Assembly (NCBI GenBank): GCA_002633005.1
Contig: NMRA01000075.1
Coordinates: 1 to 64,000 of the forward strand
From: Phoronis australis
Taxonomy: Eukaryota > Animalia > Phoronida
DNA: 64,000 bases
Direction of reading: 5' to 3'
In this document: positions 865 through 24,100 of the stretch, in pieces
Layout: every line of letters starts with the position of its first letter
How positions within the stretch are numbered: the stretch's first letter is position 1
Translations under genes and position numbers: made by a program
The notes under the pieces: model-generated
The model's input: only the letters and a program-made list of their open reading frames with translations
Database searches by the model: none
What the model was told of the DNA's origin: nothing

Positions 865-3800
865 CTGTAGCGTGTTCTCTGGATTTTCAAGATGTGGAAA
901 TTCCCTCAATAACGCTCGTGCAATGAGGCCGTATTCCTTCTGGTCAGGGTAACTAAAAGAATAACATGAGACATTAGAAACACATAGAATAGCAAATGCC
1001 AACTAAACTACGGTGTACCGCATTGTTCATTGGGACTGTTTTAAAGAGGTCCTTGAAAGCGAGAAATGGACTACATTTCACTAGCCAGAATAGTTCTCTG
1101 CCACTGAAACAGAATTCGTTCACCTGGAAAATATTTATTTTGGGAGACTATAACAGCCTTAGTTTGACTACGAAATCTCGTAGAGACAACATACTTACAT
1201 GTTATTGAACTTTTTATCTAAATCGTCCAATGCCGTGAGGATCAATGACGACTGTTCTGATTTACTCAACGGCTCTTTTTCTGTCAGCTTTTGTAACAAA
1301 TGTTTAGAAAGAGATTCCACTGGCCATTTATAATCTAAGGGAATGTGCTTCGTCTCTCCACTTGCACTGAAAAGGCCAAAACACCAAATATATCATTCAT
1401 TCATTGAAATCGAAATGAAAAACACAACAGGAGCCAGCTGCTGTAATTCAACAAGATGTTCTGCTACCTGCTATTGAAGTGTAGTGCTGCCCCTGAGACA
1501 ACAGCATGTCTTGTTTAATCAAATCAAAACTCTTACTCACACGTTGATCCTGAGGTGGTGGGTACTTGCTCTAAATAGTTTAAATAGTCATACTTTGCAC
1601 TGACTTTTCAAATTTGTACCAAACTGGTTTTTCTGCTGCTTCAGAGAATTGGTGACTAAATTCGCCGTAACATTGACAGATAGGTTGAAAAAGTTACCAG
1701 AAAAAATATAAACTGATCGTACAATCCCAAAACATTACATGACACTCATTTGACATCTTGGATTAGAAAATCAAGAGTGCGACAGAACCTTGCAACTTTC
1801 TTAATACTTTGGTCAAAAGGATTTGTCATTCTTTAGTGACACCAAATTGAACAGGTGCTTAAGAAACGAAACGACATGACGCTGAGTATGCATCATATTT
1901 TGAAATACTCACTGCTACTAAAAGACACTGTGAAGATGAACAAAAAATAGAAAAAACAACGTGTATTGAGATGTAAAATAACGATTGAGTAAATTCAAAC
2001 ACACCCTTCCGTTAAAGCCTGAACAAAGGAAACACTCCTGGTGTCTCTACTGTAACTAATGGCCCAGTTCCTATAAAGGCAATAAATCGTTCGTGATGTC
2101 ACAATTTAAACATGCAATTCGTCATGTTTATCTTCATTAAAACGAAAATAAAGCAGGCGTTCTACCCGCTAGGAATAGATTTCTCTTTCATGGGAATTTT
2201 TTTTCCATTCCATCAGGGACCCACGAAAATGTTTAAGAGTTAAGTGTGTTTAGTCAACCTGAAAATTCTGAAATCGAAAATGACGCACCTAGCCGCATTG
2301 CTCGCGACTCAACTTGACTGGAAATGGAAATTGAACCATGTCACGATAAGTGATATTGTGAGACAAGTTTATGAGAGAAAAGGCCTAGTTCGATTAACTT
2401 TTTAGCCAGCCTCTCGAAATTTAGCTTTAAACAAGGGTATTTTAAGAAATGGAAATGGTAAAACAATTTGGTGGAACGGGCATATCTTTTAATTCATCAC
2501 GTAAAATTTATGATTCCTGAAAAGAGTACGAAATAATTGTTTTATCCCATAAGCGTTGAACCTGTCAAATGCAATACTGCCATGAGATATTGTATTTGGT
2601 ATCACCTTCCCAGAACTAATTTAACTGTGGCCTCTGACATGGAAAGTTTTCAGAAGGTACGGGAGGTCAATGTCGAATTGACAACAATAGGCGGTTTGAT
2701 CATCAAACTTTCCCAAAATAGTTTAAACTAGTAGCATTGCTGCAGTGTAAATAACAATGAGCATACAACCCGGTCTCTAACAGAACATCTGTTACATGTA
2801 CGAAACTGTTAATCATATGACACTTTAGTGTCAGTTTTATTTGCTAATAGTTATATCGTCTAAAACGCAGGCGACGATTCCACGGTAGCTACATTGTAAA
2901 ATATTGTTTTAATTTAATCATTTTCGGGAAATGTTACAACGTCGTGCACAATTTCCGTTGCTGTCATCTTTGTTATCTCGCTTCAAGTGATAAATCATAA
3001 TAACTGAAACTGTTTTGTTTTACAGGAGAAAGCATTTAATAACGCGCAAATACATGAGCATATAGATTTGAACAGTTTGAGTTAAGTATTTAAAAATCTT
3101 CCGAAATATTGAAACAGACTTAAATAAGGTCGATACGCGGAATAATGGCTCGTGGGATATGACTTTATTTACGCCGCTCTCGGTACATTTGGTGGATGTA
3201 TGCACAAACAAAGCAGTTTTAATTTATACATCAGTGTGTACATGTAAGTGATAGATGAAAATGGGTCAAGGCTTGAATTATGGAATTGTTTGTGAAGAAT
3301 CAAAATGGAAAAGGAATTTAGTAATGATTGACAGATGAACAAAGCTTTAGCACCGAAGTTAATTAATACTTGGTGCTTTACGTGTGGAAATCGCACATTT
3401 TTTCTACTAAAATATTTGTTTCCCCGATTCAAAACATTCCCGGACTAAGGAAAAATGTACCCTATTTGAAAACGCCCATGCTAAGCAAGTTCATCCCCGT
3501 GGCTCACCCTGGACATCAAAGAAAACATATTTTTTGGAATAAAACTGTCTCGCTTATTTAAATAATCTGATTTAGCTTGATTAGCTCATACACTGATTAT
3601 CCACAAAATATAACATCAGCAGCTTGTGGCTATGTAAATTATTACAACGAAATGTTGTCTTTGATAAAATTGTCATTGCCAGAAGTTCGAGGTACGCAAA
3701 CCGGTCGAGTTGCCCAATTTCGATCGATGAGTGTATTGAACATGTGACTGTTTTTCTGATAGGTATCACATTAGTACAGTCAATGTAGATCAGTGGATCC

Positions 3801-4482
3801 GTTATATTGCTGGCTATCGAATGTATCGCCATATTTTTGCTTTCACTGGGCGTCAGAGACAATGGTATGTTTAGTAATATGAGACGTGCGTACAAAAGGT
3901 TATGAGAACAGCACCCTTTCCTACAACCCTATCATTGCCATAGCAACGCCAGGCGGACTACATTTTCGGGATGAACCACTGTTGTGTTGAACGTCTTTGT
4001 TAAATCAATAAAAACCTTGTCTCTGATGAATTAACTCAGTTTCTTTTATCAGGGTCACGACTCAGTAAAATCACGCCGATTAAAATCTAACGATACCACA
4101 TCTAATATGTATATGTAAGCACACTGTTCTCTAAATGGCTATAAGTAACACACATGTATCGCACTGTACCTGTTTGGGTTACTGCATGAACTCACAGTTG
4201 CTGGTTGAGGGTCAACATGTTCATCCTCAGCAGGCAGCCGTGCATGACATGCACCCCTGAGAGTAATGTGTACTTTCGCTCTATCAGGCAACTCCTGAGG
4301 ACTATCCACCAAGACAATGTCGTTATCCCACTCAGGATCTTCATAATGCAGTTTCAATGGGGTGTCAGAATGGATTTTAAATAGTCTCTTAATTTCCAGT
4401 GGTAGCAGGCTTTTGTCACACACAACAATCTTACGTTGGTCTCCTTCATATTTCACCAAGTAGTTGAAACCACTTTTGTTCC
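865..4482 (-). pseudogene. Spliced PB1-like/SAMD3-like gene relic; exons ~4482-4170, 1570-1541, 1366-1199, 952-865, possibly a stop-containing exon near 744-787
   Basis: YLVKYEGDQRKIVV...LEIKRLFKI...LHYEDPEWDNDIVLVDSPQELPDRAKVHI is PB1-like. Downstream exons have GT-AG ends and matching phase 2 joins, giving ...LDKKFNNI-YPDQKEYGLIARALLREFPHLE, resembling SAMD3-like proteins. The next candidate exon has TAA TAA in frame. Confidence 0.55.
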
Positions 4483-4730: not shown

Positions 4731-5134
4731 GGCCCGGTCTCTAATCTTTGTACTCGAGACGAACTCGAAACTATGTTTTTTTGTAATTTCTCTGCTCCTT
4801 TTGTGCGAACTTAAGATAATTGGTTAACAGACTGTGCTCAAATACATTACAGTTAATGCATAGGAGTTTCTAGTTCAAGTTTGCATTTGAAGACACTTAT
4901 ATTCGTGCTACAAACTCGAGTAAAAACTCGAAATTTCGAGTTCAAACTCGAACTTATTGCTTTAATATTGGGTTTTCAAACTGTGAACTAAGGGCAATAA
5001 ATTATCTACGTAAGTTATTGTGTACTCGAGCATAGAATAATAGACACTTATCTTGATTTCGCCCAAAAGTAGAGTAGAAAATGCCAAACCTAATTTCGAG
5101 TTCCATTTCGAGTAAAAAGATTGGAGGCCCGGCC
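4731..5134. mobile_element. PIF/Harbinger-type MITE, copy 1
   Basis: TIRs GGCCCGGTCTCTAATCTTT / AAAGATTGGAGGCCCGGCC, flanks TTG and CTG (3-bp CWG-type TSD); near-identical copy at 59282-59682. Confidence 0.8.
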
Positions 5135-5846
5135 CTGGTACACAGACGCATGCCCCCAACTTGGCCACCCCAGTGTCAAACACACTGAATCATTCAGCGA
5201 TTATGGCACTTCACGTATCTACTGAAGAAAGCTACATGCATGTACGCAGCCTAAAACGGGAGGCTTAAATTTTTGAGAATGTGAACTTTTTACTAAGATT
5301 CATGGGGTATGTTCAGAAATTTGCATTCACCGAATGTTGGTAGTTTCNAGTTAATGCATAGGAGTTGCTAGTTCAAGTTTGCCCTTGAAGACACTTATAT
5401 TCGTGCTACAAACTCGAGTAAAAACTCGAAATTTCGAGTTCAAACTCGAACTTATTGCTTTAATATTGGGTTTACAAACTGTGAACTAAGGGCAATAAAT
5501 TATCTACGTAAGTCACTGTGTACTCGAGCATAGAATAATAGACACTTATCTTGATTTTGCCCAAAAGTAGAGTAGAAAATGCCAAACCTAATTTCGAGTT
5601 CCATTTCGAGTAAAAAGATTGGAGGCCGGGCCCTGGTACACAGACGCATGCCCCCAACTTGGCCACCCCAGTGTCAAACACACTGATTCATTCAGCGATT
5701 ATGGCACTTCACTTATCTACTGAAGAAAGCTACATGCATGTACGCAGCCTAAAACGGGAGGCTTAAATTTTTGAGAATGTGAACTTTTTACTAAGATTCA
5801 TGGGGTATGTTCAGAAATTCGCATTCACCGAATGTTGGTAGTTTCT
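4851..5846. repeat. About 497-bp direct duplication across the single N at 5348 (probable haplotype-overlap assembly artefact)
   Basis: 4851-5347 is nearly identical to 5349-5846 and the junction is exactly the N. Confidence 0.8.
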
Positions 5847-7953: not shown

Positions 7954-8301
7954 TCACATATAGGTGCGTAGTTTTACCACAATGTGTGGATGTTCAGTTC
8001 TTTTATGTTTGTTTTTTATCCCCACGTGCAGTGCCAGTAAAAGACACAATGTACTACCTATCAGCTTATAATCCACACTCGGTTGTTTCATCATCCCGCC
8101 ATCTCTACTTTTCACTAACTCGCTAACACCCTCATCAACCATAGGTTCAGCTTCACCCGTTGAGTTTTCATGACTTTCCAGCTCCGACAGTAGTAACGGA
8201 AGCTGGGCTGACCGTACGCTTGCTCCCTTCTCCACAGCCGCGAGCTCTTGATCAATGCCTTCTTCCGAGAGATTTTGTTTCCTGCTCTGCCGCATGTAGT
8301 T
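7954..8301 (-). CDS. Candidate terminal exon of the ankyrin gene (NYMRQSRKQNLSEEGIDQELAAVEKGASVRSA...)
   Basis: TTCAG acceptor, phase 0, compatible with the donor at 10977. An alternative candidate terminal exon is 10593-10540 (LAEGTDGGSKENWLESD*). Confidence 0.35.
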   Translation of the reverse strand, partial: NYMRQSRKQNLSEEGIDQELAAVEKGASVRSAQLPLLLSELESHENSTGEAEPMVDEGVSELVKSRDGGMMKQPSVDYKLIGSTLCLLLALHVGIKNKHKRTEHPHIVVKLRTYM

Positions 8302-10977
8302 CTGAAGCCAACATCGAAACATCATTTTATGTAACACAAATGCTCACAAGGCTCCGATCAAATGCCTTTAATCCACCAATATTTATTTCACAAATGGAAG
8401 ACAGGACCAAGTATGTACGTTCAGGTGGAGTAGCCATATTGTTATTACCCGGCCTGAAGGATTGTTTAGTGGCTAATTAGCTGTCAATGGAACATTCTGG
8501 ACCGAGGTGAGTGCTAAGGGTTTAAGACTGCATTGTTACCGAATGAGCACAGGCGATGCTTGCATGCACAATTTCGGAATCTCGGCAATATTAGGGTTCT
8601 TCAATCCTGAATACGAAACATTTTTCTTGAATCGGTCATATAGTATAGGCAAAAGAAAACGGACAAAACGAACAGGTATTCCGCATTGTCACGGCTGAGT
8701 GCAAGGGTAAATCTGCGTAAAAAGTAGTGTGTGAAAATAGAATTGACTGCCGATAACACTCATCAGTCATGGCGCGTCAATTTAGGGAGAACTTATAAAA
8801 ACAAAAAGGTTATATTTTGGGTTTTTATTGTTCGGATAAACAGTGTAGGCAAGAAAAATGTCTGACATCATTAAACCGCTCTTAAAAGGGGTATATAACA
8901 CTTTGACGTATTAGTCCTCATGTAATTGCAATACTGTACATGTAAAATAAAAATGCAACTAAACTAGCACTTATTTTGAGAAATAATTGAGGAAATATGA
9001 AGATTTAGAGAGCGACCTGGACATGTATTATAGAGACAGGTATGGAGATGTTGTGAAGACGACACTCGGGCCTTAGGTGAAACAGCTAATGAAGTGGAAA
9101 CGCAAAAACAGGTAATGTGCTGGAAACGCAAAAACTGAAATATTGCCTTTCCGAGTGCTATTACTGCAATTTGGCACATGCAACTATTCATAATATTCAG
9201 TCGAAGTGATTTTGAGATCGCTACCTCTCACAGCCGAAGATTTTTTTGTCACAACTGGTGCGGAATACAATTGCGGAGCGGAATCCCCAGATGACGTCAC
9301 ACATATTCCATTTAGTTCATGATTAAAAGTACACCAATTGAAGAACAATATTTAAAACATGATACCAACATTATTGGTAACGGAATGCAAGCATTTATGA
9401 CCATTGTGTGAAGAGCAGACGACCTATACATTGTAGTCATAGGTAACGTATTGCCACATACCTGTAATTACACGTGGGAGGCGCTGTATCTGTTGGAAGT
9501 TGCATTGGATAAAAAACTTCCCCATCTACATCTACAGTGCATACATGCATGTGTGGTCAATTCGTGTCATTTATATGTTGCAGCGGGAAGTTTTTTTTTA
9601 ACTTGGTTTTCGGGACTGTTCGTTGATTATGATTTTGCATCGTCTGAGTAGTAGCAGCAGGCATCGGTGTAGTAAAATGTGTTCAGTAAATTGGAAATTA
9701 CCGTAGGTCAACTTACTCGATCGCTCTACATGATGGACTATTGCAGTGGCATCGGAAGATTGTGTTTAAGATTACAACACCTATAGTCCGTCATTTGAAC
9801 AAGTGTCGAGAAAACTGCAGTCGAAACTGACCGCACGGAAGCGGAATTGTTTGGTTTATTTTGGCGTGTGCTGTAGTTTCTATGAGCTTAGAAATGAAAT
9901 ACATGGCGATTCCTAGCGCGGGTAAAGCATATTGCATCACTAAACTGTTTATTAGAGTAAAAGGGCTTATGTGGTACTGGCATTACTGATTAGTGTTGAA
10001 ACCAGCTAATCTGGGCGAAATACAGTTTTAATGTGATATATTATCGGTTACTTAAGGATATGCAAAATATTTGTTCCCTCGCAACACCAGTTCTGCACGC
10101 GACTACGTTGACCGTGCAAGCAAATCATGGCACCCCTGCCAGTCTTCATGTTAAGCATGACGTCATTTGACGCTATGGATCCAGTCAAATGAAATTAAAA
10201 TGATGAAATTAAAAACAGTGATGGTCATGGGCAGAGTTAAGTAAAACATCAAACCACTTCAAACGTTAGGCCTATATTTCCTGGCCATGGACCTGATCAT
10301 TCACAATCCTTCTGAACTCCCAGGGAGCACAATGGGTGAAAGCTTTGTGCAAACCGCGTTGTCAGACCACATAGATTAATCCAAACACACGTACAGTTAT
10401 GTCAAAAGAATCCAGTGCTCAATTAAATGAATCGGAAAAAGACCAGGAAAATTTTCGAAAATGTAATGTGTGTGTATATCAAATCGTTGTTGCACCTATT
10501 CACGTCACAATAGTGACAAATACTATGAATTTGAATTGATTAGTCCGACTCCAACCAGTTTTCTTTGGAACCACCATCTGTCCCTTCTGCCAACTAGGAC
10601 CAAGTCATGTACAATTATAGCAATGTTTTCAACACGCGTGTACTACGCACCACATGACACTCACTTTGTTCATTGTGTGTGTCATTCTAGTGTTCGATTG
10701 TTCAAGTGTTCACAGTTTATCTGTTTGGATTCCCAAATGCGATATTTTGAGTCATGTTACGAAATTAAACATCTGGACTGATGTGGCATGGCTTGCTTAA
10801 ACACTTCTTTTTACCACTACACAAGAGAAGTGTTTCTCTCGGTAATCTGATGGCAGCAATATTAATGAAGAACGATAATGACGCCATGGTCACCATGTTA
10901 GTAACAAGAACATTTAATAAACCATTATGATACTGCTTAAGTACTAACAGTTTCAAAAATATTTCACTGTTGCGTAC

Positions 10978-11127
10978 CTCAAGAATTTTCTTTATTTTTT
11001 TGACACGCTTAGGCTCCTCCATGTTATGGTCGCTCTCTTCCGTGTCATCGTCGCTCTCTTCCCCGACATCGTCCCTCAAGTATCCATAGTATTCCTTCCC
11101 ACAGACATCGTAAGCAGTTTTTCCTTC
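10978..11127 (-). CDS. Ankyrin gene C-terminal cap exon with acidic insert (EGKTAYDVCGKEYYGYLRDDVGEESDDDTEESD...IKKILE)
   Basis: ttacag acceptor, GAG|GTACGC donor, 150 bp, phase 0-0; GKTAYD is the typical start of a final ankyrin half-repeat. Confidence 0.75.
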
Positions 11128-12868
11128 CTGTAAATTACATATTTTAATTCGCATCAAAATTAAAATGAGCAATACTTTCAAAAAAATAAAACTACATATA
11201 GCATGCAACGGGTATCATAGACACAAGAATTAACGTTCACACGGGAACTTTTAGCCATAGTATTGTGCAATGCTTGCATGTGTAAGCTTGGCAAATTCAA
11301 ACCTTAAGGAACTATCCTAGAACTAAGATGTACATGTATCAGCACAAAATACACAAACTGAAAAATTAAACTTGTGTCTTCAGTTGCAGCAGAATTCTTT
11401 GAACTGGAAGATCCTTTCATGAACATTTATTGTTGATGTTCAAATGTAATAGCAGCCTAGTTTGCAACTAATCAAACGTTTAGATGCTATTGTAGTGTAT
11501 ACTGACGGAAATGTTTCGATAATATATGTACATACATTACACATCAGCAATGACTTCCTTATATATACATACACACCATATGATTAATATACTTTTAAAT
11601 GATTGACAGCAGTGGCACTAAGAACACGTTTTAAGAATAAGTTCGACAATAGGCAATTTGAACACCTTAAAGCTAACAAGCTTTCTCAACAACATTTCCT
11701 ATAGAATTTATATCACTATTTTGACTTGAAAATATCAAGAAGTCTACTATCTGATATCTTCCCTATATCTATTTGATGGTCTTCAAATTTGCCAAACATT
11801 TTCTTACCGATTCCGTGAAAAACTATATCTTGTTAACTTGTACAGAATTAGGACTATAGCTATTAAGGAATATGGTCCCTATGTGTCTTATGTATTTCTG
11901 TAATATTTTACATGATAAACTGCTTACGTTTGACCTACATGTATTGATTTGGCACGTGTCAGAACTCAACTGTCTCCATCAACATTCAACTACGACGACA
12001 CTCAGTTCAAAAGTATCCTGCAGCTGCATGCCACAAGGTCCTCTAGCAAATACGCTGACCATGGTACATGTATATAGGATATATTGACTTGCTTGGTGAC
12101 TACATGTACTAGAGAGTCCACATAGATAAATCACGATACATCGGCCAGATAGTGGCCTCTTAACTGGCCGCTAGGTTCATCTATATAAATTAAGAGTAAC
12201 TCATTATACATGTATATCGGATACATTGACTTTTCTATTGGCCGTTAGGATCGCACATACAAAGCCTCCTCTTTATGGTGAATTTGGAAACATTTAATAT
12301 ACTGACCTCTTTACTTATCACCAAGAACACATATAATATCGGATGCATTGATTCCCGTAATGGCCACTAGGATAGTACATGCTTTTTCAAGGCCATATTT
12401 ACAAAACATTATTTAACCAGTGCCACCAGAGGGTAAGACTTCTAGTTCGAACTTACGGTATAACGGATACATTCTATGCATGTATTTCTTAGGGTTGTGG
12501 CCGGTACGCCGCCTGTTGGTTTGATCGCAAAAACAAGGAACTCTTTAATGTAAGATTGATAGGAAATAAAATCTGATCATATTATGGGAACCATGGTTTT
12601 GGTATCAATGCACCTTTCCTTCTTTCTTAAACCTTATTAACGATATGTTCACGTGACTCAAATAATGACAGATAAGTAAACGGTGACAAATCAAATTCAG
12701 CAGTTCCCTTAATGAAACCCAAATGTGTGTGTAAACACGACTGATACGGAACAAGTTGAAACCATTTCGACACCTGCTTGAGAAGTAGAGTGAGTTGCAC
12801 TACATCAGTAAGTCTGGAGAAAGACAATGATAACATACTTCAGAATTTGATTGGCACACTTATCTTAC

Positions 12869-12967
12869 CGTATTGGGAGCTGTGGCATCGACACCCTTTT
12901 TTAGAAGGAGTTCAACAACAGCTAGCTTGCCACGCCTAGACGCGAAGTGCAGGGGCGTGTCGCCTTC
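12869..12967 (-). CDS. Single ankyrin-repeat exon EGDTPLHFASRRGKLAVVELLLKKGVDATAPNT
   Basis: 99 bp, tag|GAA ... ACG|gtaaga, phase 0-0; matches the GxTPLHxA..G..xVVxLLLxxGAD consensus. Confidence 0.93.
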
Positions 12968-13544
12968 CTACAACAAGCATTAAAACGACTGACAAACCAT
13001 AAATATAATTACACCATTTCCATGTGTTTGGTGAACAACTCGTGTAAATGAAAGCGAGGTTGACCTATTTGAAGTCAAAATGTCAAAGAATATTATCAAA
13101 AATAAAACTGAGTTCAACACGAAGCATATATGATATCAAACATTATATGATTATTTTCATGCACATAGTAAAAGCAAAAGGAAAATATTTTAGAAGATTT
13201 TAACAACATTTTTGAAATCTCGTGCTCAAGATGGATAGGAAATAAAATCTGATCATATTATGGGAACCATGGTTTTGGTATCAACACACCTTTCCTTCTT
13301 TCTTAAGCCTTAATAACGATATGTTCACGTGACTCAAATAATGAAAGATAAGTAAACGGTGAAAAATCCAATTCAGCAGTTCCCTTAATGAAACCCAATT
13401 GTGTGTGTAAACACGACTGATACGGAACAAGTTGAAACCATTTTGACACCTGCTTGAGAATTAGAGTGAGTTGCACTACATCAGTAAGTCTGGAGAAAGA
13501 CAGTGATAACATACTTCAGAATTTGATTGGCACACTTATCTTAC

Positions 13545-13643
13545 CGTATTGGAGGCTGTGGCATCGGCACCCTTTTCTAGAAGGAGTTTAACAACATCTA
13601 GCTCGCCATCCTTAGACGCGAAGTGCAGGGGCGTGTCGCCTTC
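13545..13643 (-). CDS. Single ankyrin-repeat exon EGDTPLHFASKDGELDVVKLLLEKGADATASNT
   Basis: 99 bp, same splice sites and phase as the paralogous exon 676 bp away. Confidence 0.93.
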
Positions 13644-13690
13644 CTACAACAAGCATTAAAACGATTGACAAACCATAAATATAATTACAN

Positions 13691-16600
13691 AGTGCAGTCT
13701 TCACTTGACTGTGTAATGGATGGAAGGGGCTTTGAACAGCCTTGGCTACAGTAATACCTTGTAGAAGAAATTGTCTGTCTGCAATGCTGGGACACTGACA
13801 AGGTAACGTAATGCTGTGACTGACGTAGATCTCGTACATCCAGTGATGACGCGAAGACCAATGTTTTGGAGCCTCTCAAGTCTTTTGATTTGATTTTTAC
13901 TGATGTTGATCATGGTGAGAGCGTAGTCGAAGACCGAAGTGACCAGGGCTTTATAAAGCATGACGAGGTGCCTTTCCTCCGCCTTCCGACCAGCCGCAGC
14001 CCTAAGGGCATTAATTCCTCTGTTAGCACGGCTGATCATACTGTTAACTTGAGTTGTGAAGTTGAGCCTGTGGTCGAGTTCTACACCCAAGTGACGCATG
14101 TGGTCAGATGTTGCAATCAACTTCCCATCGTAGGTAGGGCAAGGGAAATCATCAACACTGAGGCGATTGTCCAGAGTACAGAAGAGAGCTTCACATTTGT
14201 CTCCATTGCAGCTCATTCCGCTGGTAGCACAAAACTAGCAGATTTTCATCAATGAAGACTGTGCTTTGTGGAGAATCTCATGATGTGTTTGTCCTTGCGA
14301 TGACAGCAGCATGTCGTCTGCAAAGGAGCGAAGTCAGCAGTCAGCGCGGTTCAGTCTGGCGAGTGGGAGGGTGTAGATATTGAACAGCACTGGGGACAGA
14401 GATGAACCTTGGGGTAAGCCTGTGTTGACAGATACCCATTCTGAACGCCATGTGCGATGTTTTAGCATGCATCGCCGGCTGTTGAGGGCACTCATCACCC
14501 ATCTAATGCATCTTACAGGAATACCGAGATGAAGCATGCCATTCGCAAGTTTTGGAAGTTGAACAGAATTGTACGCATCTTCTAGATCAAGGCCAATGAG
14601 GAGAGTGTTTTCTTTGTTTTCAAAACCTTGCCATATCTCATCTGCAACAGAAGCTGCATTGGCCCATGAATCTCTACCAGGTCGATAAGCACCCATTCCT
14701 GGGAGGAGCCAGGGTTCAATTAACTTGGTGATTCTTTGCGCCATGATCCTTTCAGGGATTTTTCCAATGACGTTCTGCATCACTATGATTCGATATCCCT
14801 TGAGTGCACGATGGTCTTTTCCAGGTTTTGGTACAGGAATTAAGAAGGCATCAGTCCAGATGTGAGGGATGATTCCAGTGGCCAAACTGACGTTGTAGGA
14901 CTTCACAAGCTTGGCCAGCAGAAAGTCAGGCAAAGACTTGAGTGTCGGGACTCTCATGCCATCGGGGCCAGGGGCACCCTCTTTGCAAGTTTTGATAGCA
15001 TCCGCAACCTCTGCTGTAGAGAATTGACTGTCCTGTTCAGCTGTCTTGCAAAGTCCATCTAGTTGTTGGATGAGGAGGTTTCTTTCAGATTCATCACTGT
15101 GGTCACTTTGCTGGATGAAACGCAGGAGAAAAGCCTCACCCTGTTCCCTGTCATTCCTGAGAATGGTGTTGCTTGCATTCAGTAGGATGGATCTGGGGGG
15201 AGCACGTCTCTTGTCCATGTTACGATGGAAGTGCCAGAAATCTGTAGCTGTCAAGTTGGATCGGCTGCAAAGCTCATCCCATCGACGATTGGCAGCCTCG
15301 GATGCTGAGCGTTTGAACAGGGCAGTGGCCCTGTTTCTGGCTGTTCTGACGACCGTGAACTCTTCCGGTGTGCAGTTTTGNNNNNNNNNNNNNNNNNNNN
15401 NNNNNNNNNNNNNNNNNNNNNNNNNNNNNNNNNNNNNNNNNNNNNNNNNNNNNNNNNNNNNNNNNNNNNNNNNNNNNNNNNNNNNNNNNNNNNNNNNNNN
15501 NNNNNNNNNNNNNNNNNNNNNNNNNNNNNNNNNNNNNNNNNNNNNNNNNNNNNNNNNNNNNNNNNNNNNNNNNNNNNNNNNNNNNNNNNNNNNNNNNNNN
15601 NNNNNNNNNNNNNNNNNNNNNNNNNNNNNNNNNNNNNNNNNNNNNNNNNNNNNNNNNNNNNNNNNNNNNNNNNNNNNNNNNNNNNNNNNNNNNNNNNNNN
15701 NNNNNNNNNNNNNNNNNNNNNNNNNNNNNNNNNNNNNNNNNNNNNNNNNNNNNNNNNNNNNNNNNNNNNNNNNNNNNNNNNNNNNNNNNNNNNNNNNNNN
15801 NNNNNNNNNNNNNNNNNNNNNNNNNNNNNNNNNNNNNNNNNNNNNNNNNNNNNNNNNNNNNNNNNNNNNNNNNNNNNNNNNNNNNNNNNNNNNNNNNNNN
15901 NNNNNNNNNNNNNNNNNNNNNNNNNNNNNNNNNNNNNNNNNNNNNNNNNNNNNNNNNNNNNNNNNNNNNNNNNNNNNNNNNNNNNNNNNNNNNNNNNNNN
16001 NNNNNNNNNNNNNNNNNNNNNNNNNNNNNNNNNNNNNNNNNNNNNNNNNTCAATTAACTTGGTGATTCTTTGCGCCATGATCCTTTCAGGGATTTTTCCA
16101 ATGACGTTCTGCATCACTATGATGCGATATCCCTTGAGTGCACGATGGTCTTTTCCAGGTTTTGGTACAGGAATTAAGAAGGCATCTGTCCAGATGTGAG
16201 GGATGATTCCAGTGGCCAAACTGACGTTGTAGGACTTCACAAGCTTGGCCAGCAGAAAGTCAGGCAAAGACTTGAGTGTCAGGACTCTCACGCCATCGGG
16301 GCCAGGGGCACCCTCTTTGCAAGTTTTGATAGCCTCCGCAACCTCTGCTGCAGAGAATTGACTGTCCTGTTCAGCTGTCTTGCAAAGTCCATCTAGTTGT
16401 TGGATGAGGAGGTTTCTTTCAGATTCATCACTGTGGTCACTTTGCTGGATGAAACGCAGGAGAAAAGCCTCACCCTGTTCCCTGTCATTTCTGAGAATGG
16501 TGTTGCTTGCATTCAGTAGGATGGATCTGGGAGGAGCGCGTCTCTTGTCCATGTTACGATGGAAGTGCCAGAAATCTGTAGCTGTCAAGTTGGATCGGCT

Positions 16601-18633
16601 GCAAAGCTCATCCCATCGACGATTGGCAGCCTCATATGCTGAGCATTTGAACAGGGCAGTGGCCCTGTTTCTGGCTGTTCTGACGACCGTGAACTCTTCC
16701 GGTGTGCAGTTTTGGCGTGCACGGTCAAAATCCCGCTCTTTGGAGCGCTTGTTGGCCCAGGCAGTGTCAACATCTTTATTCCACCAAGTAGTGGGGTTCT
16801 GCCTCCTGTGGTGGCATACGTGCTTATGTAAGCTTTTGGCGTGTCTGCACACTGATTTCCAGATTTTATCCCCTTCGGTATTATTGTAGGACCGTTTATA
16901 AGTCGTTACTGGAGCCTTTAATTGGTGGTGTAGTTGAACTTCACACAAGTAGTGATCGCTTCCAGCTTGACAACTCCTACGCCACTCAGCACGGTCGCGA
17001 AGATTGTCGCTGCTCAGAGCAAGGTCAATGCACGAGTCCTTGTCAAACGGTCTCTCAGCCATCCTAGTGGGTTCACCAGAGTTGAGAACATATAAATCTA
17101 GTTCTGGAAGGCATTCGGCGAGACCTTTACCATTTGGGTTCACACCGTAGACATCCCAGCTGGAATGACGAGCATTAAAGTCACCAACAATGAGAATGTC
17201 GGGATAGATGTGAAGCAGATTGTGAAGAAAATTGGTCGCAACTAGGGGAGGAGTTTCCCCGTATATTCAGATTGACTAGTGTGAATGGGTCGCGGAAACC
17301 AGGATCAGTGACGCTTATTATCTGTAGTTGCCTGTCAGTGTTAGTGAAACTGAGTATTCACAAGCTCTACCATGGTGTGGCTGTCTTTGTTGATTGCGTA
17401 CGCCAGGCCATTGGTGATGCCCTCTCTAGGAATAATGAAACCTTCGAGTTCAAAGTCTGTCAGGTCCTTAAGTTTGGTTTCTTGGAACAGGAGAATGTCG
17501 TAGCCCGCACAGATTTTATCCAGTATATGCTTGCTGCCACGTATGTTACAGTAACCAATCCTGAGACGGTTGAGTTGAAGTCTTTCGTACTTGAGTTGTC
17601 GGGCACGTTTTCCAGCTTTTTTACCTCTGTGTTTCTTTCTAGGACCGCGCTTTCTGGTGCCACGGCGGATGTTCTGTCTGGCTGCACTTTCCCAGTCGCG
17701 CCGTCCAGCATCCGTATGGACATTTACTTCTGTAATAAGTCTTGAAGCAGGCGATGGAGTAACGATAAGCCTGTTGAGGTTGTAACAACCTCTAAGCCCC
17801 CTACGCCCAAAGGGGCAGGCTAACTGCGGCGGGTCAGTTCCCTACTGGCCTGGGGCTGCCAGGCTTAAGGCGGGCGGCAGCTGACCAATAAGGGTTAAAG
17901 AACCCCTCCCACTGTCATGCGTGGCCCCTGATGCCCACCCGACGCTGATGAGGTGATGGCTTAGAATCGGTAAGCTGCCACGCACCGGTATGTTCACTGA
18001 CACAATGTGGCAGCCGGGAGTGACCTCTCCCGGACCCCTGACCAAGAAGACAATCCGTCGTCTCCTGCCCTTCTGAATGTTGAGTGCATAGGACAAGTAA
18101 GGTATCCAACAGACACTTCGTCCGCTCTGATGGGGGGGGTCGGCTCCACCTGCGGCTCTCTGCAGTTCTTCTGACCGTTGAGTGCCAGGGATGTGGAGAG
18201 CATCTGAAAGGCACCACGTCCTCTCAGCCAGAAAAACTAGTATTTTACAGGACAAGGTAGTAAGTCTTGAGCCCAACCAATGAAGGGTGCTATTTGCCCA
18301 TAGCTGGGAGTTAGGTTGGTGAACGCCAGAGCATATCCATACACCGATGGGTCATGCACGTTGCACCTTTAAGAGCCTAACCTCTTCCGAGATCCCTTGC
18401 AAAATTTAGCCTGGGGCCGCAGGGTGCCCAGTTACCATGGTGTACCACAAGGAGGTACTGCAAGAGTCTTGATTAGAGGTAGTTAAAGGCCACCAAGGCG
18501 GGTCTTACACATGCCTTCCTAATTCGTCTCATAGGACTAGGTGGTCGTAGAAGGTGAAAGCTAGAAAGTGTAAGCGCTAACTACACTAAGCTACAATAAC
18601 TACACATCTAACCCTGTGTCTAAGACACCACAC
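13691..18633 (-). mobile_element. Non-LTR retrotransposon (APE endonuclease + RT; RT resembles I/Ingi group, clade uncertain), inactivated
   Basis: APE motifs RIGYCNIRG, ILLFQET, LIVGDFNARH, DSCIDL, GSDHY; RT motifs APGPDG, PKPGKD..YR, LDLEDAYNSV, GLPQGSSLSPVLFNIY, FADD. In-frame stops near 14334 and 14235 and a frameshift near 17340. The 3' end is lost at N 13690; 14717-15380 duplicates 16051-16712 around the gap. Confidence 0.93.
18394..18631 (-). ncRNA. HDV-like self-cleaving ribozyme at the LINE 5' end
   Basis: P1 GUGGUGU/ACACCAU with G1-U wobble; P2 CUCUUGCA/UGCAAGGG; P3 ACC/GGU with L3 UCCUUGU; P1.1 CC/GG; P4 CUGGG/CCCAG; J4/2 GCUAA; long J1/2 of about 160 nt. Confidence 0.8.
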
Positions 18634-20340
18634 CACATTAACGGGCTCTCTACTGACAATAAGACAATCGATGCAGTCACTGAATGTCATTTCCCCATAA
18701 TTTGTGCTAAGTTGAAAAGTTTTTGCCATTAGTATAAAGCCTTTCTTCTGAAAGGAAACGTTAATGTCACTCTGTGAGAAAGGACAGGTATTTATACCTA
18801 TGGCCTATAGAAGCGCTTGTAAAAAAGGTCCAGTTTCGGCACATGACTTTCCTTCATGTAACCTCATTCAGCCTCAATAACATCCAAAATCAGATCCTTG
18901 AAGGTACACACAGCAGCATATCACTTGACTCGTTTTTGTGCCCAAAATCAGACCCTGAACTAGACCAGAGTGTCACTACGTCTTCTTTAGCTTCAGTCCC
19001 TCATGTTTCTTTCAGGAAAGGAAATAAGCTATTGTCCACACATGACTCATTGCCTATGAAACGGCATCCTCACCAACGAGGCTGACTTGTGTAGCAGTCA
19101 GATATAGTTCCTCTTCATACACAAACAATCCACTGGCACATTGTCTTATGGTAACTTAGTACTGCGATTCACATTTCTCCAGGGCCACTCACTTTTACAT
19201 TGTGCCATGCAGCACTGCTGGGTGTGGAAATGCTGTGGGAAGAGAAAGGAGTAACAAAGCTTGTGTATGTTGCAGCTTGAAGTGGCCTTATAATGTCACT
19301 GAACCAAATATTGAAACATGAAAAATTAAGTACTCCAGGTTGGGTGAAAAACGATACCCCTGTTTTTCAAAAATTTGATATGGTGACTGCTCTACAATTT
19401 CACACAAAGTTAAATAATTAATATTTTCAGAAAGCAAGGGTGTATATAATAAGTATTGTATAAAACTGCGTCTTTATTTTCCATTCGTAGCCATAATTCT
19501 TTAAACGCATCACTTGTCTGCAAAATAGGCAAGTTTTTTGAGACAATTTCAAACCTTTGTTACCCATTTTTAAGCCTTTTCATTTTTGATTCATTCAGCA
19601 ATTTTAAACTCCGATTACAGAACCATGGGTCTGTCAAGCATACTTCTAGTCTAAGACTGAGTGAACCGTATCTCAGACTTTTTATTTTTCTTCTAATAGA
19701 AGATATGAAGACTTGGGTCATTTAAAAAATGATGGATAATCTTTCTGTTGTTTAAGAGTAATTACAAATCTTAAGTAACCATCAAAAACGGAATTTTCAC
19801 AAAAAATGGCAGTCATTTGAATTTATAAACGACTTGCAACATTTCAGTTCATGAGTTAAGACTATTAAGTGACTGAGAATTCAGAAAATGTAATATATTT
19901 TTATGGGTTTACAATTGATAGCAAAACAGTTTCATGAAATAAACTTGAAGGAACTTAAGGTTAAGAATTACCTCACCCAAACATGTATTACCTGTTATTT
20001 CTACACATTCAGTTGCACCAAATATTACAACCCCAACCCCCTATGCCAATCCCCCGCTAAGGACCTGCATAAGTAAATTAACAAAATGACTTTCATACCT
20101 TTCTTTAAAAATAGCTGTTCCTTTTCAAAGGCTTTGTTCGTTGTCTCCAAAAGTAGGCTTTGACAACATAACTGCACTGCATGAGAAGATCTTGCTAGTT
20201 AGCTGCAGTCAATTGCTTAAAACCAATTTTTGTCCATTCAGGGACGGTGCAGAAGCGACACGTATCTCCTCTGCACGGTACAAGCCCTCAGACCTAAAAA
20301 ACCAAAGGTCACGTAAAAACAGACATGATAGATTCCATTT

Positions 20341-20521
20341 CCGGAAGACATAGGATAGGTAGTAAACAAATAGTCTAATGGATATTTGTCACATACCCTT
20401 TACCATTGGGCTTGGATTGTAATCTTAACTCCCGAAGACATAGGATAGGGAGTAAACAAATAGTCTAACGGATATTTGTCACGTACCCTTTGCCATTGGG
20501 CTTGGATTGTAATCTTAACTC
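20341..20521. repeat. Tandem duplication of about 90 bp
   Basis: gaagacataggatagg...gattgtaatcttaactc occurs twice back to back. Confidence 0.9.
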
Positions 20522-21128
20522 ACTAACCAATATAGAGTTGACAGCATAAACATTCAGCATTGATTTATGTAACTCTCACTGATAAACCTGTCAGAAATCA
20601 TTCCAAACAATAATACTGCTTTGATGTACGAAAAGATCCCGAGTGCTACGTCAAGTATCGGAACACGCATCATAACAAACAAAGATTAACCCAACTGGTG
20701 ACTGCAGTGAAGTGGACATCGGCGAGTACCTCACTTAACAGGCATCTGTAGAATAAACATGGAACAATTGTTAAAATAATCACAAACCTTACCTTTGTAT
20801 AAGGGCGTGCTTACTTCCTCTCATAGAAGCACCCTGTTCACGCAATCTCAGATTCAGTTGGCACGGCTGCAAGCCATTTCACCATGTATTTAAAGGGCTT
20901 GCAAAATCAAGGCTGCTTATCTATCACCACTAGTACACGCGCGCCCTCTAGTTAATGTAAATTGTCCGAATAGCCCCATTAGTGCGGTTTTCCATTTCCA
21001 TGCAGTTCTGTCAAAGCACAAGCAAAGAAAGGTCAGCTTTGTTTAATTTTATCTTACTTGGCATGATTCAACTTTACTTGCAGGTAAGCTGAGCTGCTAT
21101 TTAATATTTCTTGTTGATTTGACTTCAG

Positions 21129-24100
21129 GGGCAGCCATCCTTTGTCAAGTTGTTTAGATACCCTCATCTGGATGTATACAAAGATGCTGTAGCTCACAAG
21201 AGCTTCTTTAAAGCTGAAAAAGTTGAAATAAAGTGGAGCCATAATGGTAACTGAAGCTTGTGTATAGAGCATGTGTGTTCACCATGTGTGTAGACCCTGN
21301 TGTGTGTAGACCCTGTGTGTAGACCCTGTGTGTAGACCCTGTGTGTAGACCCTGTGTGTAGACCCTGTGTGTAGACCCTGTGTGTAGACCCTGTGTGTAG
21401 ACCATGTGTGTAGACCCTGTGTGTAGACCATGTGTGTAGACCATGTGTCTAGAGCATGTTGGCTGATTATGGGACCGTGACTACAAACGGTGGCTTAAGG
21501 TGACATGTCAAATGTGATGTGTTGGTAATCTGATTGAAGGCTCAATTTGTCAGACCCCAATTCACTTTAATGGTGTTTAGTAAACTTTACGTGTTAGTTA
21601 TAATACTGACTAGTGTTTGTTCAGTCAAAAATATATTTAATGCCACTGATAAAAACACGGCATAGGATTAAATGCATGAATGGGAAGTACCTTTTTACTA
21701 AGGTGATGAAACGTCATGTTACTAAGTGGTAGAATGTGGATTGTACATGTTTAAACTGAGGTAGACAGTTTTATACGCTGCATTGATTTTTGTCTTAATT
21801 GTCTGATTGGCCTATGGTCTTTACTGCAGGAGTAAAGTTAATTAATTTGTCCCAGGTAAAGGCGTGGTCATTTTAACATCAGTGGAGACATCAGAAACAT
21901 CTTACTACGGTGAACAAGGACTGCACTATGCATCAGTGGAGGGTGACAGCTCACTGGTGCCTCTTGGTGAGTTCAGTGTTTTGATGAGTAAGTACTCTAT
22001 ACATCAGTGGAGGGTGACAGCTCACTGGTGCATCTTGGTGAGTTCAGTGCTTTGCTGAGTAACTACACTATGCATCAGTGGAAGGTGACAGCTCACTGGT
22101 GCCTCCTGTTGAGTACAGGGCTTTGATGTGTACACAGTTATGTGATTATATCCGTGTACAGTGGTTCAGAGTGGGCTGATCTTTGAGCAGATGATCAAAT
22201 TTGTTGACAAAATCATGCCCCCCCCCCAGTTCCCCTCAGGACTGGAACATATAAAACCTACAGTAACTTTGGTAATCAGCATCAGCTGAAAACGAAGAAA
22301 TGCAAGGATTTCAGTTGACAACTTGACAATTTCACATTTATCCATCCAAATGTAGAAGCTGGGAATTAACCTCAGCTTTCTTGTAACAGGCTGGAAGGCA
22401 TCAGGAAGTGTGTCAACGGGTGCACTTGTCCTGTAAATGTAGCCTCCTTCCCTAGCCAATGACATTGCATGGTTGCTGCAAAAACGCATTGAACTTTGGC
22501 TTGAGAGACTGCTGTTATGCGTTCTTTACCAACTACACATGTTGGTGGATATTGTCGTCATCTCCATCTTTGTGTCTGGCTTGCACTGCTGTACCGTATT
22601 CTCTCTAATAATCGCCCATGGCGCTTAGAAAAATTCATTTCAGTGGGGCGCTTGTTGTAACCCAAGGCGTTTGAAACCCGGTCTCCGAAACGGGTATCAT
22701 ATTTACGCTCTGTGACATATCTGTAACCTTTGACAGACTTTCTACAAATTTGTAGTGCATTGCTATCAAACTGCTGTTAAATTACGATCATTTTACAGAA
22801 AATTGTGCATAAATCTCAGGGCGAGAACTCTCCGACTGACTGGCAATCATCGATATGGCAACTTGAATGCTTGAATAAAAATATCTCCATGATAGCAAGT
22901 AACAGCATATGTTCACGAAAACAACAACGGTTTTAAAACTTGACATGTTTCGGTGTCATTTATTAAACACCATCCTCAGAAGTCATAATACAGTGGCCAC
23001 CTAGCTAGGCCCAGCAACAAGTAATGAAGCACAGATACAGTCAGTTACAGGGAGTGACAATGAACTAGACCAACAAGGACAACCTGTGGTGTGTCAGTTG
23101 CCTATTGAGATTGGGCTTGCACCAACTGATATGTAAAGCCTCAGGAATTTTAAGCTCCTTTGTTGTTACTGCCTGGTCTATTATTGCAAAATCATTGAAA
23201 GAGCACTGCTGATAACAATGATTGGAGCTCTGCAGGTGAATATTTACATGTGAATTACTGTCAGAATTTAGGTGTTCCTTGGTCCTGGTTTTCAAATGGC
23301 GAACAGTTTCGCCTATATAACTGGAGCCACATCCAGCACAGATAAATTTGTATACTACCTTGGACCGTAGACCCATAGAAATTTTGTCCTTAGGGTTAAA
23401 TAAACTCGACAGTTTTAGAGACTTGAATGTTAATACAACTCTTAAGTTCCCCCAGGGGCAGTTTTTTTTACATTTACCTCTGTATATTCAAAGTTCTTTG
23501 ACAGATTGTCATGAAATTTTTACATTTGTATTTCTGTTATGGAGATGACAACGCATTTTTATTTTTGGGCAGATTAGATGTATTCTTTGCCACTCATTGG
23601 TCTTTTCTGCTATTTTTGAATCTGGATCTATGTAAGACATGACAAGTGCATGTCAATCCAGGTGGCAAGAGATGCTAATTTCTTTTAGATGAATCTAAGT
23701 ACCATTGTGCATCATAGTGGCAATGTTATTTTTAGGTTTGACTGTTTATCTTTGGAGTTCCTGTACAGATTTTCATGCAATTTGTGAAATCACTGTTTTT
23801 TGGGAGTTGATGAGACCCTCTCATTTCATTGCCAGACGGCTTCAATTTATTTTGCTCCCCCCAATGGCCCATTTTGATATTATCAAACTTCCCTAGAAGC
23901 ATACTGTTTGTAGTGCAGTGGTGGGCTCATTTCAACACTTTGGTTGCTCTTGTTAATGCAGTTATAAAGTGTGTTCTTGATCAAAGATTGCTGTGGCAAC
24001 GTTAACACTTTTCTTCTTTCAGCCAAAAATGGTCCTGTGTACAGCGTCGAATGGAATCCGTCTTTACCACAGTTCTGTGTTGTCTATGGTTGTATCTTTT

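What the first reader, a model, noticed from the sequence alone, without database searches (positions are those of the whole stretch)
12558..13689. Tandem one-exon-per-ankyrin cassette whose exons diversify faster than their introns
Seen: two 99-bp phase 0-0 ankyrin exons sit in 676-bp tandem units. By hand count the exons differ at 10 of 99 nt (9 non-synonymous, 1 synonymous; 8 aa changes: R/K, R/D, K/E, A/D, E/K, K/E, V/A, P/S), while ~310 bp of adjacent intron differ at only about 11 positions (~3.5%). GDTPLHFAS and LLL are untouched; changes are mostly charge swaps, several at the end of helix 1, part of the ankyrin binding face. The array ends at a contig join, so more units may be collapsed. 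Known: exon-per-repeat arrays with homogenised introns and hypervariable exons occur in putative immune receptors such as Ectocarpus ROCO-LRR/NB-ARC-TPR genes. Inference: a diversifying ankyrin recognition module, variable by unequal crossover or exon skipping. Two units give weak statistics.
Basis: partly seen in the sequence, partly recalled or inferred. Interest (0 to 1): 0.8.

Follow-up and report, generated by a model that had tools for sequence, protein, structure and literature searches.

The report
Hypervariable ankyrin-exon cassette array, invertebrate
An expressed invertebrate gene builds its ankyrin binding domain from copied one-repeat exons that vary more than their introns and most at positions predicted to grip partners, so it likely works as a fast-diversifying recognition protein, probably an intracellular immune-type sensor, although its signalling part was not found.

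Summary
Observation confirmed. Two 99-nt, phase 0-0 ankyrin exons (13643-13545, 12967-12869, minus strand) lie 676 bp apart. They differ at 10 of 99 sites (9 non-synonymous) against 13 of 363 in the introns (p=0.016). They are not two alleles. RNA shows such exons spliced to each other and to a capping exon, and contigs of one DNA sample stack roughly 8-20 times deeper over the unit than over unique DNA. In that sample 20 of 99 exon places vary against 4-9 of 162 intron places; this weakens under a stricter depth cut. Five of six positions randomised in a designed ankyrin library vary (p=0.01). Excess over synonymous change is suggestive only (p=0.08-0.21). The gene continues through a capping exon and a linker exon. 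No P-loop, Roc, NACHT or death domain was found, and the 5' end is lost at a contig join beside a LINE. The host is a lophotrochozoan-like invertebrate. It likely works like brown-algal LRR-ROCO cassettes and fungal NLR ankyrins; membership of either is unshown. This scan noted similar arrays before in feather star, acorn worm and choanoflagellate DNA. My literature searches found no animal ankyrin case.

The parts
13545..13643 (-). Ankyrin exon A, 99 nt, phase 0-0
   Evidence: RNA joint into its 5' end, X7 2 reads
12869..12967 (-). Ankyrin exon B, 99 nt, phase 0-0, last internal repeat
   Evidence: RNA depth 14-35 in X5 and X7 falling to 0-2 in the adjoining intron bins; exon-to-exon joints
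12552..13227 (-). One whole 676-bp exon+intron unit
13228..13689 (-). Second unit, cut after 462 bp by the contig join
12920..12946 (-). Hypervariable segment of the exon (codons 8-16: helix 1, its end and the following turn)
   Evidence: 21 of the 40 variant rows shown lie here; DNA contig depth drops to 353-481 at 12923-12940 from about 1500 nearby; five contigs give five variants
10978..11127 (-). Capping exon, 150 nt, phase 0-0: degenerate last ankyrin half-repeat with an acidic insert of about 33 residues that other copies lack
   Evidence: splice from exon B type in X6 (2 reads) and X7 (15 reads, loose end); skips of 97-103 bases in X7 (27 and 38 reads), X5 (2 reads) and one X1 contig; no Pfam hit
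8058..8301 (-). Linker exon, 244 nt, phase 0 to 1; single copy by DNA depth
   Evidence: stranded RNA depth 3-10; splice sites seen in sequence; the joint from the capping exon was not among the joints shown; depth arithmetic suggests RNA stops near the 8058 donor; no homologue
4170..4482 (-). Candidate next exon (untested): ubiquitin-like/PB1-like fold with phase-1 acceptor; open path on to 1366-1199 and 952-865. May be a separate gene
   Evidence: phase match; Atlas leads CIDE-N 0.88, PB1 0.83; Pfam PB1 E=0.18, below cut-off; no RNA laid here
13690..13690 (.). Single-N contig join where the array is cut; a LINE follows

Best explanation
This is the 3' end of an expressed gene whose ankyrin domain is built from tandem 676-bp cassettes of one exon per repeat, present in more copies than the assembly shows, and it likely works as a diversifying recognition module of an intracellular immune-type sensor. 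Shown: cassette anatomy; head-to-tail splicing of cassette exons and onto a capping exon; several further cassette variants in one DNA sample; variation concentrated in codons 1, 3, 8, 10-16 and 31 while GxTPLH, G13 and the leucines of helix 2 show almost no amino-acid change. Inferred: unequal crossover or gene conversion between the similar introns copies and reshuffles whole cassettes, always in frame because every exon is phase 0-0. Selection for new binding surfaces then keeps the exons more different than the introns. A small family of about 2-3 loci shares the cassettes. Untested: the ligand, the effector domain (lost at the 5' join or lying beyond the linker exon) and exon skipping within one animal.
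For: Pair: pN 12.4%, pS 3.8%, intron 3.6%; pN vs intron p=0.005. DNA run X1: summed contig depth is 8-17 times the unique baseline of 91 at exon sites outside the hypervariable segment and 12-21 times over the intron flanks. Of 32 X1 variant rows at 8% or more, 27 are shown: 20 of 99 exon places vs 4 of 162 intron places, p=2e-6; p=4e-4 if all 5 hidden rows are intronic. Non-synonymous variation at 5 of 6 library-randomised positions vs 6 of 27 others, p=0.0096 (positions from PMC4308713). Five contigs read SRCGKLD, TMYGKLD, SRRGQLA, CSRGQLA and SRHGKLD at codons 10-16 from the listed rows only. RNA exon-to-exon joints: X5 8 reads, X7 5 reads. CpG decay explains 2 of 10 pair differences.
Against: Against synonymous sites the excess is not significant: 9:1 (p=0.21), 20:3 (p=0.08), 28:7 with RNA (p=0.20), all counted letter by letter. 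The 8% cut favours the exon where depth dips. With an absolute depth cut the contrast shrinks to 12, 9 or 7 exon places vs 4, 4 or 3 intron places (p=0.003, 0.036, 0.046), and to p=0.06-0.59 if all hidden rows are intronic. The randomised positions are the least constrained in any ankyrin. Summed contig depth is not a copy number and contig overlaps inflate it. No P-loop motif lies on either strand between 1 and 46000, and no immune domain was found by Pfam in the frames scanned.
Confidence: 0.6

Rival explanations
1. Ordinary young repeat expansion: cassettes were duplicated recently, and the surface positions drift under relaxed purifying selection. The introns look more uniform because of splice signals, an embedded repeat or more frequent conversion.
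For: PMC5120217 (abstract and Discussion read) finds paralogous repeats in general diverge fast with dN/dS mostly below 1. Tests against synonymous sites are not significant. The intron stretch tested by reads includes splice flanks and part of a dispersed repeat.
Against: Relaxation alone should not lift amino-acid-changing differences above the intron rate, yet pN is 12.4% vs 3.6% (p=0.005) while pS matches the intron. Radical swaps pile up at codons 11-12 in several independent copies.
Confidence: 0.2
2. The array is under diversifying selection, but for a non-immune target: self/non-self or gamete recognition, or binding of proteins of selfish genetic elements, possibly through the downstream ubiquitin-like domain.
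For: The sequence signal is the same. No NACHT, NB-ARC, Roc or death domain was found. A phase-compatible exon chain with a PB1/CIDE-N-like fold lies downstream.
Against: The published look-alikes are candidate immune receptors (PMC3341825, PMC11378527, PMC4986451). The link to the ubiquitin-like exon is a one-in-three phase match with no RNA test.
Confidence: 0.15
3. Assembly artefact: the two units are two alleles laid in tandem at a contig end.
For: Other joins in this window carry near-identical duplicates (11 of 497 and 12 of 665 differences), and the array ends at an N.
Against: Both units lie on the same side of the N with a 214-bp spacer. RNA splices exon to exon of the same type (13 reads in 2 of 3 RNA runs). 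At least five contigs with different letters cover one exon segment in one DNA sample.
Confidence: 0.03

Closest known systems
Brown-algal LRR-ROCO and NB-ARC-TPR candidate receptors (PMC3341825: passages and section 15 read; PMC11378527: passages read)
   Same: One repeat per exon, tandem exon arrays that recombine, diversification on the ligand-binding face, a family of paralogues.
   Different: Here the repeat is ankyrin and the host an animal. No Roc-COR or NB-ARC was found, no inverted or dead spare exons occur in the window, and alternative splicing of cassettes is not shown.
Fungal NLR ankyrin repeats with high internal conservation, Podospora Pa_3_8560 (PMC4986451: passages read)
   Same: Near-identical ankyrin repeats with variation at inner helix and hairpin positions; copy number above what one reference shows.
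   Different: The word intron does not occur in that paper's main text, whereas here every repeat is an exon. No NACHT or NB-ARC domain was found here, and repeat-number polymorphism between individuals is untested.
Designed ankyrin libraries, ANK-N5C/DARPin (PMC4308713 and PMC8683736: passages read; PDB 4o60, 4qfv hits)
   Same: Near-consensus scaffold closed by a capping repeat; 5 of the 6 randomised positions (2, 3, 5, 10, 13, 33) vary naturally.
   Different: Natural; also varies at scaffold positions 12, 14, 16 and 18; no binding was measured.
Ankyrin-cassette Roc-COR-death genes noted by this scan in feather star and acorn worm (unreviewed notes)
   Same: Single-ankyrin exon cassettes with similar introns and variable binding codons.
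   Different: No Roc P-loop follows within 8 kb here; the host is lophotrochozoan-like; no shared sequence words were found.

Membership tests
Ankyrin-repeat protein (Pfam PF00023) | 33-residue repeat scoring above the curated cut-off | tested here: met
   38.2 and 36.3 bits vs cut-off 21.1
Exon-per-repeat diversified receptor (Ectocarpus type) | One repeat per symmetric exon, spliced in tandem | tested here: met
Exon-per-repeat diversified receptor (Ectocarpus type) | Positive selection on the binding face | tested here: inconclusive
   pN above intron rate p=0.005; binding-position enrichment p=0.0096; vs synonymous p=0.08-0.21; no phased set for site models
Exon-per-repeat diversified receptor (Ectocarpus type) | Exon shuffling or alternative splicing of repeats | tested here: inconclusive
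   One joint in the order opposite to the assembly (X7, 2 reads) fits extra units, another allele or a paralogue; 151-nt reads cannot show skipping
ROCO protein | Roc GTPase plus COR domain | tested here: inconclusive
   No P-loop motif in any frame from 1 to 46000; both gene ends may lie outside the window; no genome held
NLR/STAND protein with ankyrin sensor | NACHT or NB-ARC domain upstream of the repeats | not testable with these tools
   5' end is cut at the N at 13690 and followed by a LINE. The upstream neighbours seen in RNA loose ends are further ankyrin exons
NLR/STAND protein with ankyrin sensor | High internal repeat conservation (85% identity over 100 residues, PMC4986451) | tested here: inconclusive
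   The two assembled repeats are 76% identical in protein and cover only 66 residues

The most novel reading that the evidence does not exclude
A lophotrochozoan 'natural DARPin library': a pool of hypervariable ankyrin cassettes shared by several genes, recombined between individuals and combined by exon skipping within one animal, coupled not to Roc-COR or NACHT but to an undescribed effector such as the ubiquitin-like domain chain downstream.
Probability: 0.15. Interest if true: 0.8.

Novelty: new variant of a known kind. Interest (0 to 1): 0.52.

Why it matters
Invertebrates lack antibodies, and the known ways they diversify receptors are few. An expressed array of interchangeable, in-frame ankyrin exons that varies where engineers randomise designed ankyrin binders would give an animal counterpart to the brown-algal and fungal candidate receptors. 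With this scan's unreviewed notes from echinoderms, hemichordates and choanoflagellates, it suggests a recurring design that short-read assemblies collapse and so hide. The locus is directly testable with long reads. Its weight is limited because the effector and ligand are unknown and the selection statistics rest on few copies.

Tried and rejected
No whole genome is held, so no genome-wide collection of units. Homologue searches with the linker exon found nothing (0 of 161 candidates; 0 representatives; no usable Atlas hit). The ubiquitin-like exon gave 0 of 42 candidates. These blanks are weak evidence. The run search listed no RNA holder by index; RNA came from raw-read runs added by species label. 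CpG hypermutation rejected: 2 of 10 exon differences. A tail-anchor reading of the linker exon's read-through (hydropathy 1.37 over 19 residues) is disfavoured because RNA depth appears to stop near the donor at 8058 in X5 and falls to about 1 in X6 and X7; this is arithmetic on binned depth, and that donor is a poor match to consensus. A likeness of the linker to the start of a Roc domain (recalled) was dropped: no P-loop follows. No further ankyrin exons of this type lie in the window; an ankyrin-like motif at 19183 on the plus strand has no Pfam support. Literature searches for an animal ankyrin exon-cassette array found none; the library lacks most subscription papers, and I read no supplements. 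Look-ups of this scan's notes near the place and by sequence were empty. No structure or complex was predicted, because no spliced protein could be supplied.

Full report
Observation. On the minus strand, 13643-13545 and 12967-12869 are 99-nt exons with identical donors, near-identical acceptors and phase 0-0, encoding EGDTPLHFASKDGELDVVKLLLEKGADATASNT and EGDTPLHFASRRGKLAVVELLLKKGVDATAPNT. Both pass Pfam's Ank cut-off. The duplicate aligns without gaps over 462 bp at period 676 and ends at the single N at 13690. Exons differ at 10 of 99 sites, introns at 13 of 363 (p=0.016). Non-synonymous divergence is 12.4%, synonymous 3.8%, intron 3.6%; non-synonymous vs intron p=0.005, vs synonymous p=0.21. 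Only 2 of 10 exon differences are CpG-type.

Surroundings. Right of the N lies a LINE with endonuclease and reverse transcriptase frames, then eIF2A, a tetraspanin and a Shaw-type potassium channel, so the gene's 5' part is missing from the window. The channel's three database hits are an abalone, a limpet and a ribbon worm at 51-53% identity. This places the host among lophotrochozoan-like invertebrates and suggests that its own proteins are not in the database. No genome is held. Downstream on the minus strand are a 150-nt capping exon (11127-10978) and a 244-nt linker exon (8301-8058), neither with a family or homologue.

Expression and splicing. Eight runs were listed; I laid four of them: one of four DNA runs of a single sample (X1) and three RNA runs (X5-X7, about a fifth of each read). 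Reads over the exons come from one strand only, the one expected for a minus-strand transcript in a usual stranded library. Exon-to-exon joints that go back 98-99 bases occur in X5 (8 reads, 7 starts) and X7 (5 reads); X6 had only 3 reads on that stretch and none. The splice onto the capping exon is seen in X6 (2 reads) and as a loose end in X7 (15 reads). Two X7 reads join an exon-B-like end to the start of exon A, the reverse of the assembled order. Loose ends, translated by hand, show more distant ankyrin exons (GCDINTVNE-RGD, GADVTVRDA-KGD, SLHSASSHGR, VVNT-VGRTA) and other continuations after the cap (EIKNLLKQHM, KHMRFKQQSG). So further repeats and paralogues or distant alleles are transcribed.

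Copy number. X1's summed contig depth is about 91 over unique bins, 142-299 over 10580-12399, 8-17 times baseline at exon sites outside the hypervariable segment and 12-21 times over the intron flanks. The tool warns that this sum is no copy number, and overlapping contigs inflate it. I read it as roughly ten or more units spread over about two or three loci. Independently of depth, five contigs cover 12926-12939 and, matched by their depths, read SRCGKLD, TMYGKLD, SRRGQLA, CSRGQLA and SRHGKLD at codons 10-16, against SRRGKLA and SKDGELD in the window (listed rows only, so some residues may be incomplete). Two alleles of two units cannot give five variants in one sample, if that sample is one diploid animal.

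Exon against intron in the larger set. One search showed 40 of 48 variant rows: 35 in the exon, 5 in 162 bp of intron. For X1 alone, 27 of 32 rows at 8% or more are shown: 20 exon places vs 4 intron places (p=2e-6; 4e-4 if all hidden rows are intronic). The share cut favours the exon where depth dips, so I repeated the count with absolute depth cuts of 110, 130 and 160: 12, 9 and 7 exon places vs 4, 4 and 3 (p=0.003, 0.036, 0.046; worst case 0.06, 0.32, 0.59). Letter by letter, X1 gives 20 non-synonymous to 3 synonymous (ratio 2.6, p=0.08) and all rows 28 to 7 (ratio 1.5, p=0.20); multi-letter codon changes make these counts approximate. PMC4308713 randomises scaffold positions 2, 3, 5, 10, 13 and 33 as the binding surface (passages); these are exon codons 33, 1, 3, 8, 11 and 31. 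Five of the six vary in X1 against 6 of 27 others (p=0.0096); the window pair alone shows no such enrichment (p=0.62). The direction is consistent throughout; formal proof of positive selection is lacking.

The missing effector. No P-loop motif occurs from 1 to 46000, and Pfam found no immune domain in the 52 frames submitted. Binned RNA depth suggests that the linker exon is spliced at 8058 in phase 1, with no covered exon down to 5900. The nearest plausible phase-1 exon is 4482-4170, which has a ubiquitin-like fold by Atlas leads (unnamed cluster 0.91, CIDE-N 0.88, PB1 0.83) and an open path through 1366-1199 and 952-865. From memory, not from a call, this resembles the 'SAMD3-like' genes often carried by transposons, so it may be a separate gene inside an intron.

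Mechanism. Shown: cassette structure, tandem splicing, extra copies, focused variation. Inferred: unequal crossover or conversion through the similar introns copies and mixes cassettes in frame, and selection for new binding surfaces keeps the exons apart. An immune-type sensor is the likeliest role by analogy (0.6), ahead of relaxed drift (0.2), a non-immune recognition role (0.15) and artefact (0.03).

Comparison. It works like the LRR-ROCO and NB-ARC-TPR exon arrays of brown algae (PMC3341825, passages and section 15; PMC11378527, passages) and the ankyrin repeats of Podospora NLRs (PMC4986451, passages), but the defining Roc-COR or nucleotide-binding domains were not found or could not be tested. 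PMC5120217 (abstract, Discussion) supplies the relaxed-selection rival. PMC9334734 (passages) lists mollusc ROCO-TIR genes but no such array. Eight searches found no published animal ankyrin exon-cassette array; supplements were not read. That ankyrin genes often have introns at repeat boundaries is recalled, not checked. This scan's unreviewed notes describe similar arrays in feather star, acorn worm and choanoflagellate DNA; they prompted the P-loop check and are not counted as support.

Verdict. Real, expressed and larger than assembled; a new variant of a known kind; interest 0.52.

Noticed in passing
window 10995-11099: The capping exon's acidic insert (with a 21-bp triple repeat) is absent from many X7 reads and one X1 contig, and differs at 9 listed sites between the window and X1: a second highly variable spot in the gene.
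   Followed up: partly
window 865-4482 (minus): Three-exon open chain starting with a ubiquitin-like/PB1-like fold; phase-compatible with the ankyrin gene's linker exon, or a separate transposon-borne gene (recalled likeness to SAMD3-like genes).
   Followed up: partly
window 13691-18400 (minus): LINE with endonuclease and reverse transcriptase frames directly at the join; 665 bp are duplicated across the 669-N gap (12 differences).
   Followed up: partly
window 21920-22132: A 71-bp triple repeat copies the end of an apparent eIF2A exon together with its donor site, giving tandem possible donors.
   Followed up: no
window 18400-21130: No 5' eIF2A exons were found here by five recalled motifs; the motifs may be too strict or the scaffold may be misjoined near the LINE.
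   Followed up: partly
window 38113-38346: About 67 GAT units lie inside a 363-codon open frame of the Shaw-type potassium channel gene.
   Followed up: no
window 12720-12810 and 13396-13486: Part of a dispersed repeat sits in each cassette intron (loose ends and raised depth) and could seed recombination.
   Followed up: no
window 4851-5845: 498-bp duplicate flanking a single N (11 of 497 differences), probably two alleles kept by the assembler.
   Followed up: partly
window 48953-49285 (plus); 23068-23487 (minus): THAP domain (E=4e-13) and a weak GIY-YIG match (E=0.0015), probably transposon remnants.
   Followed up: no
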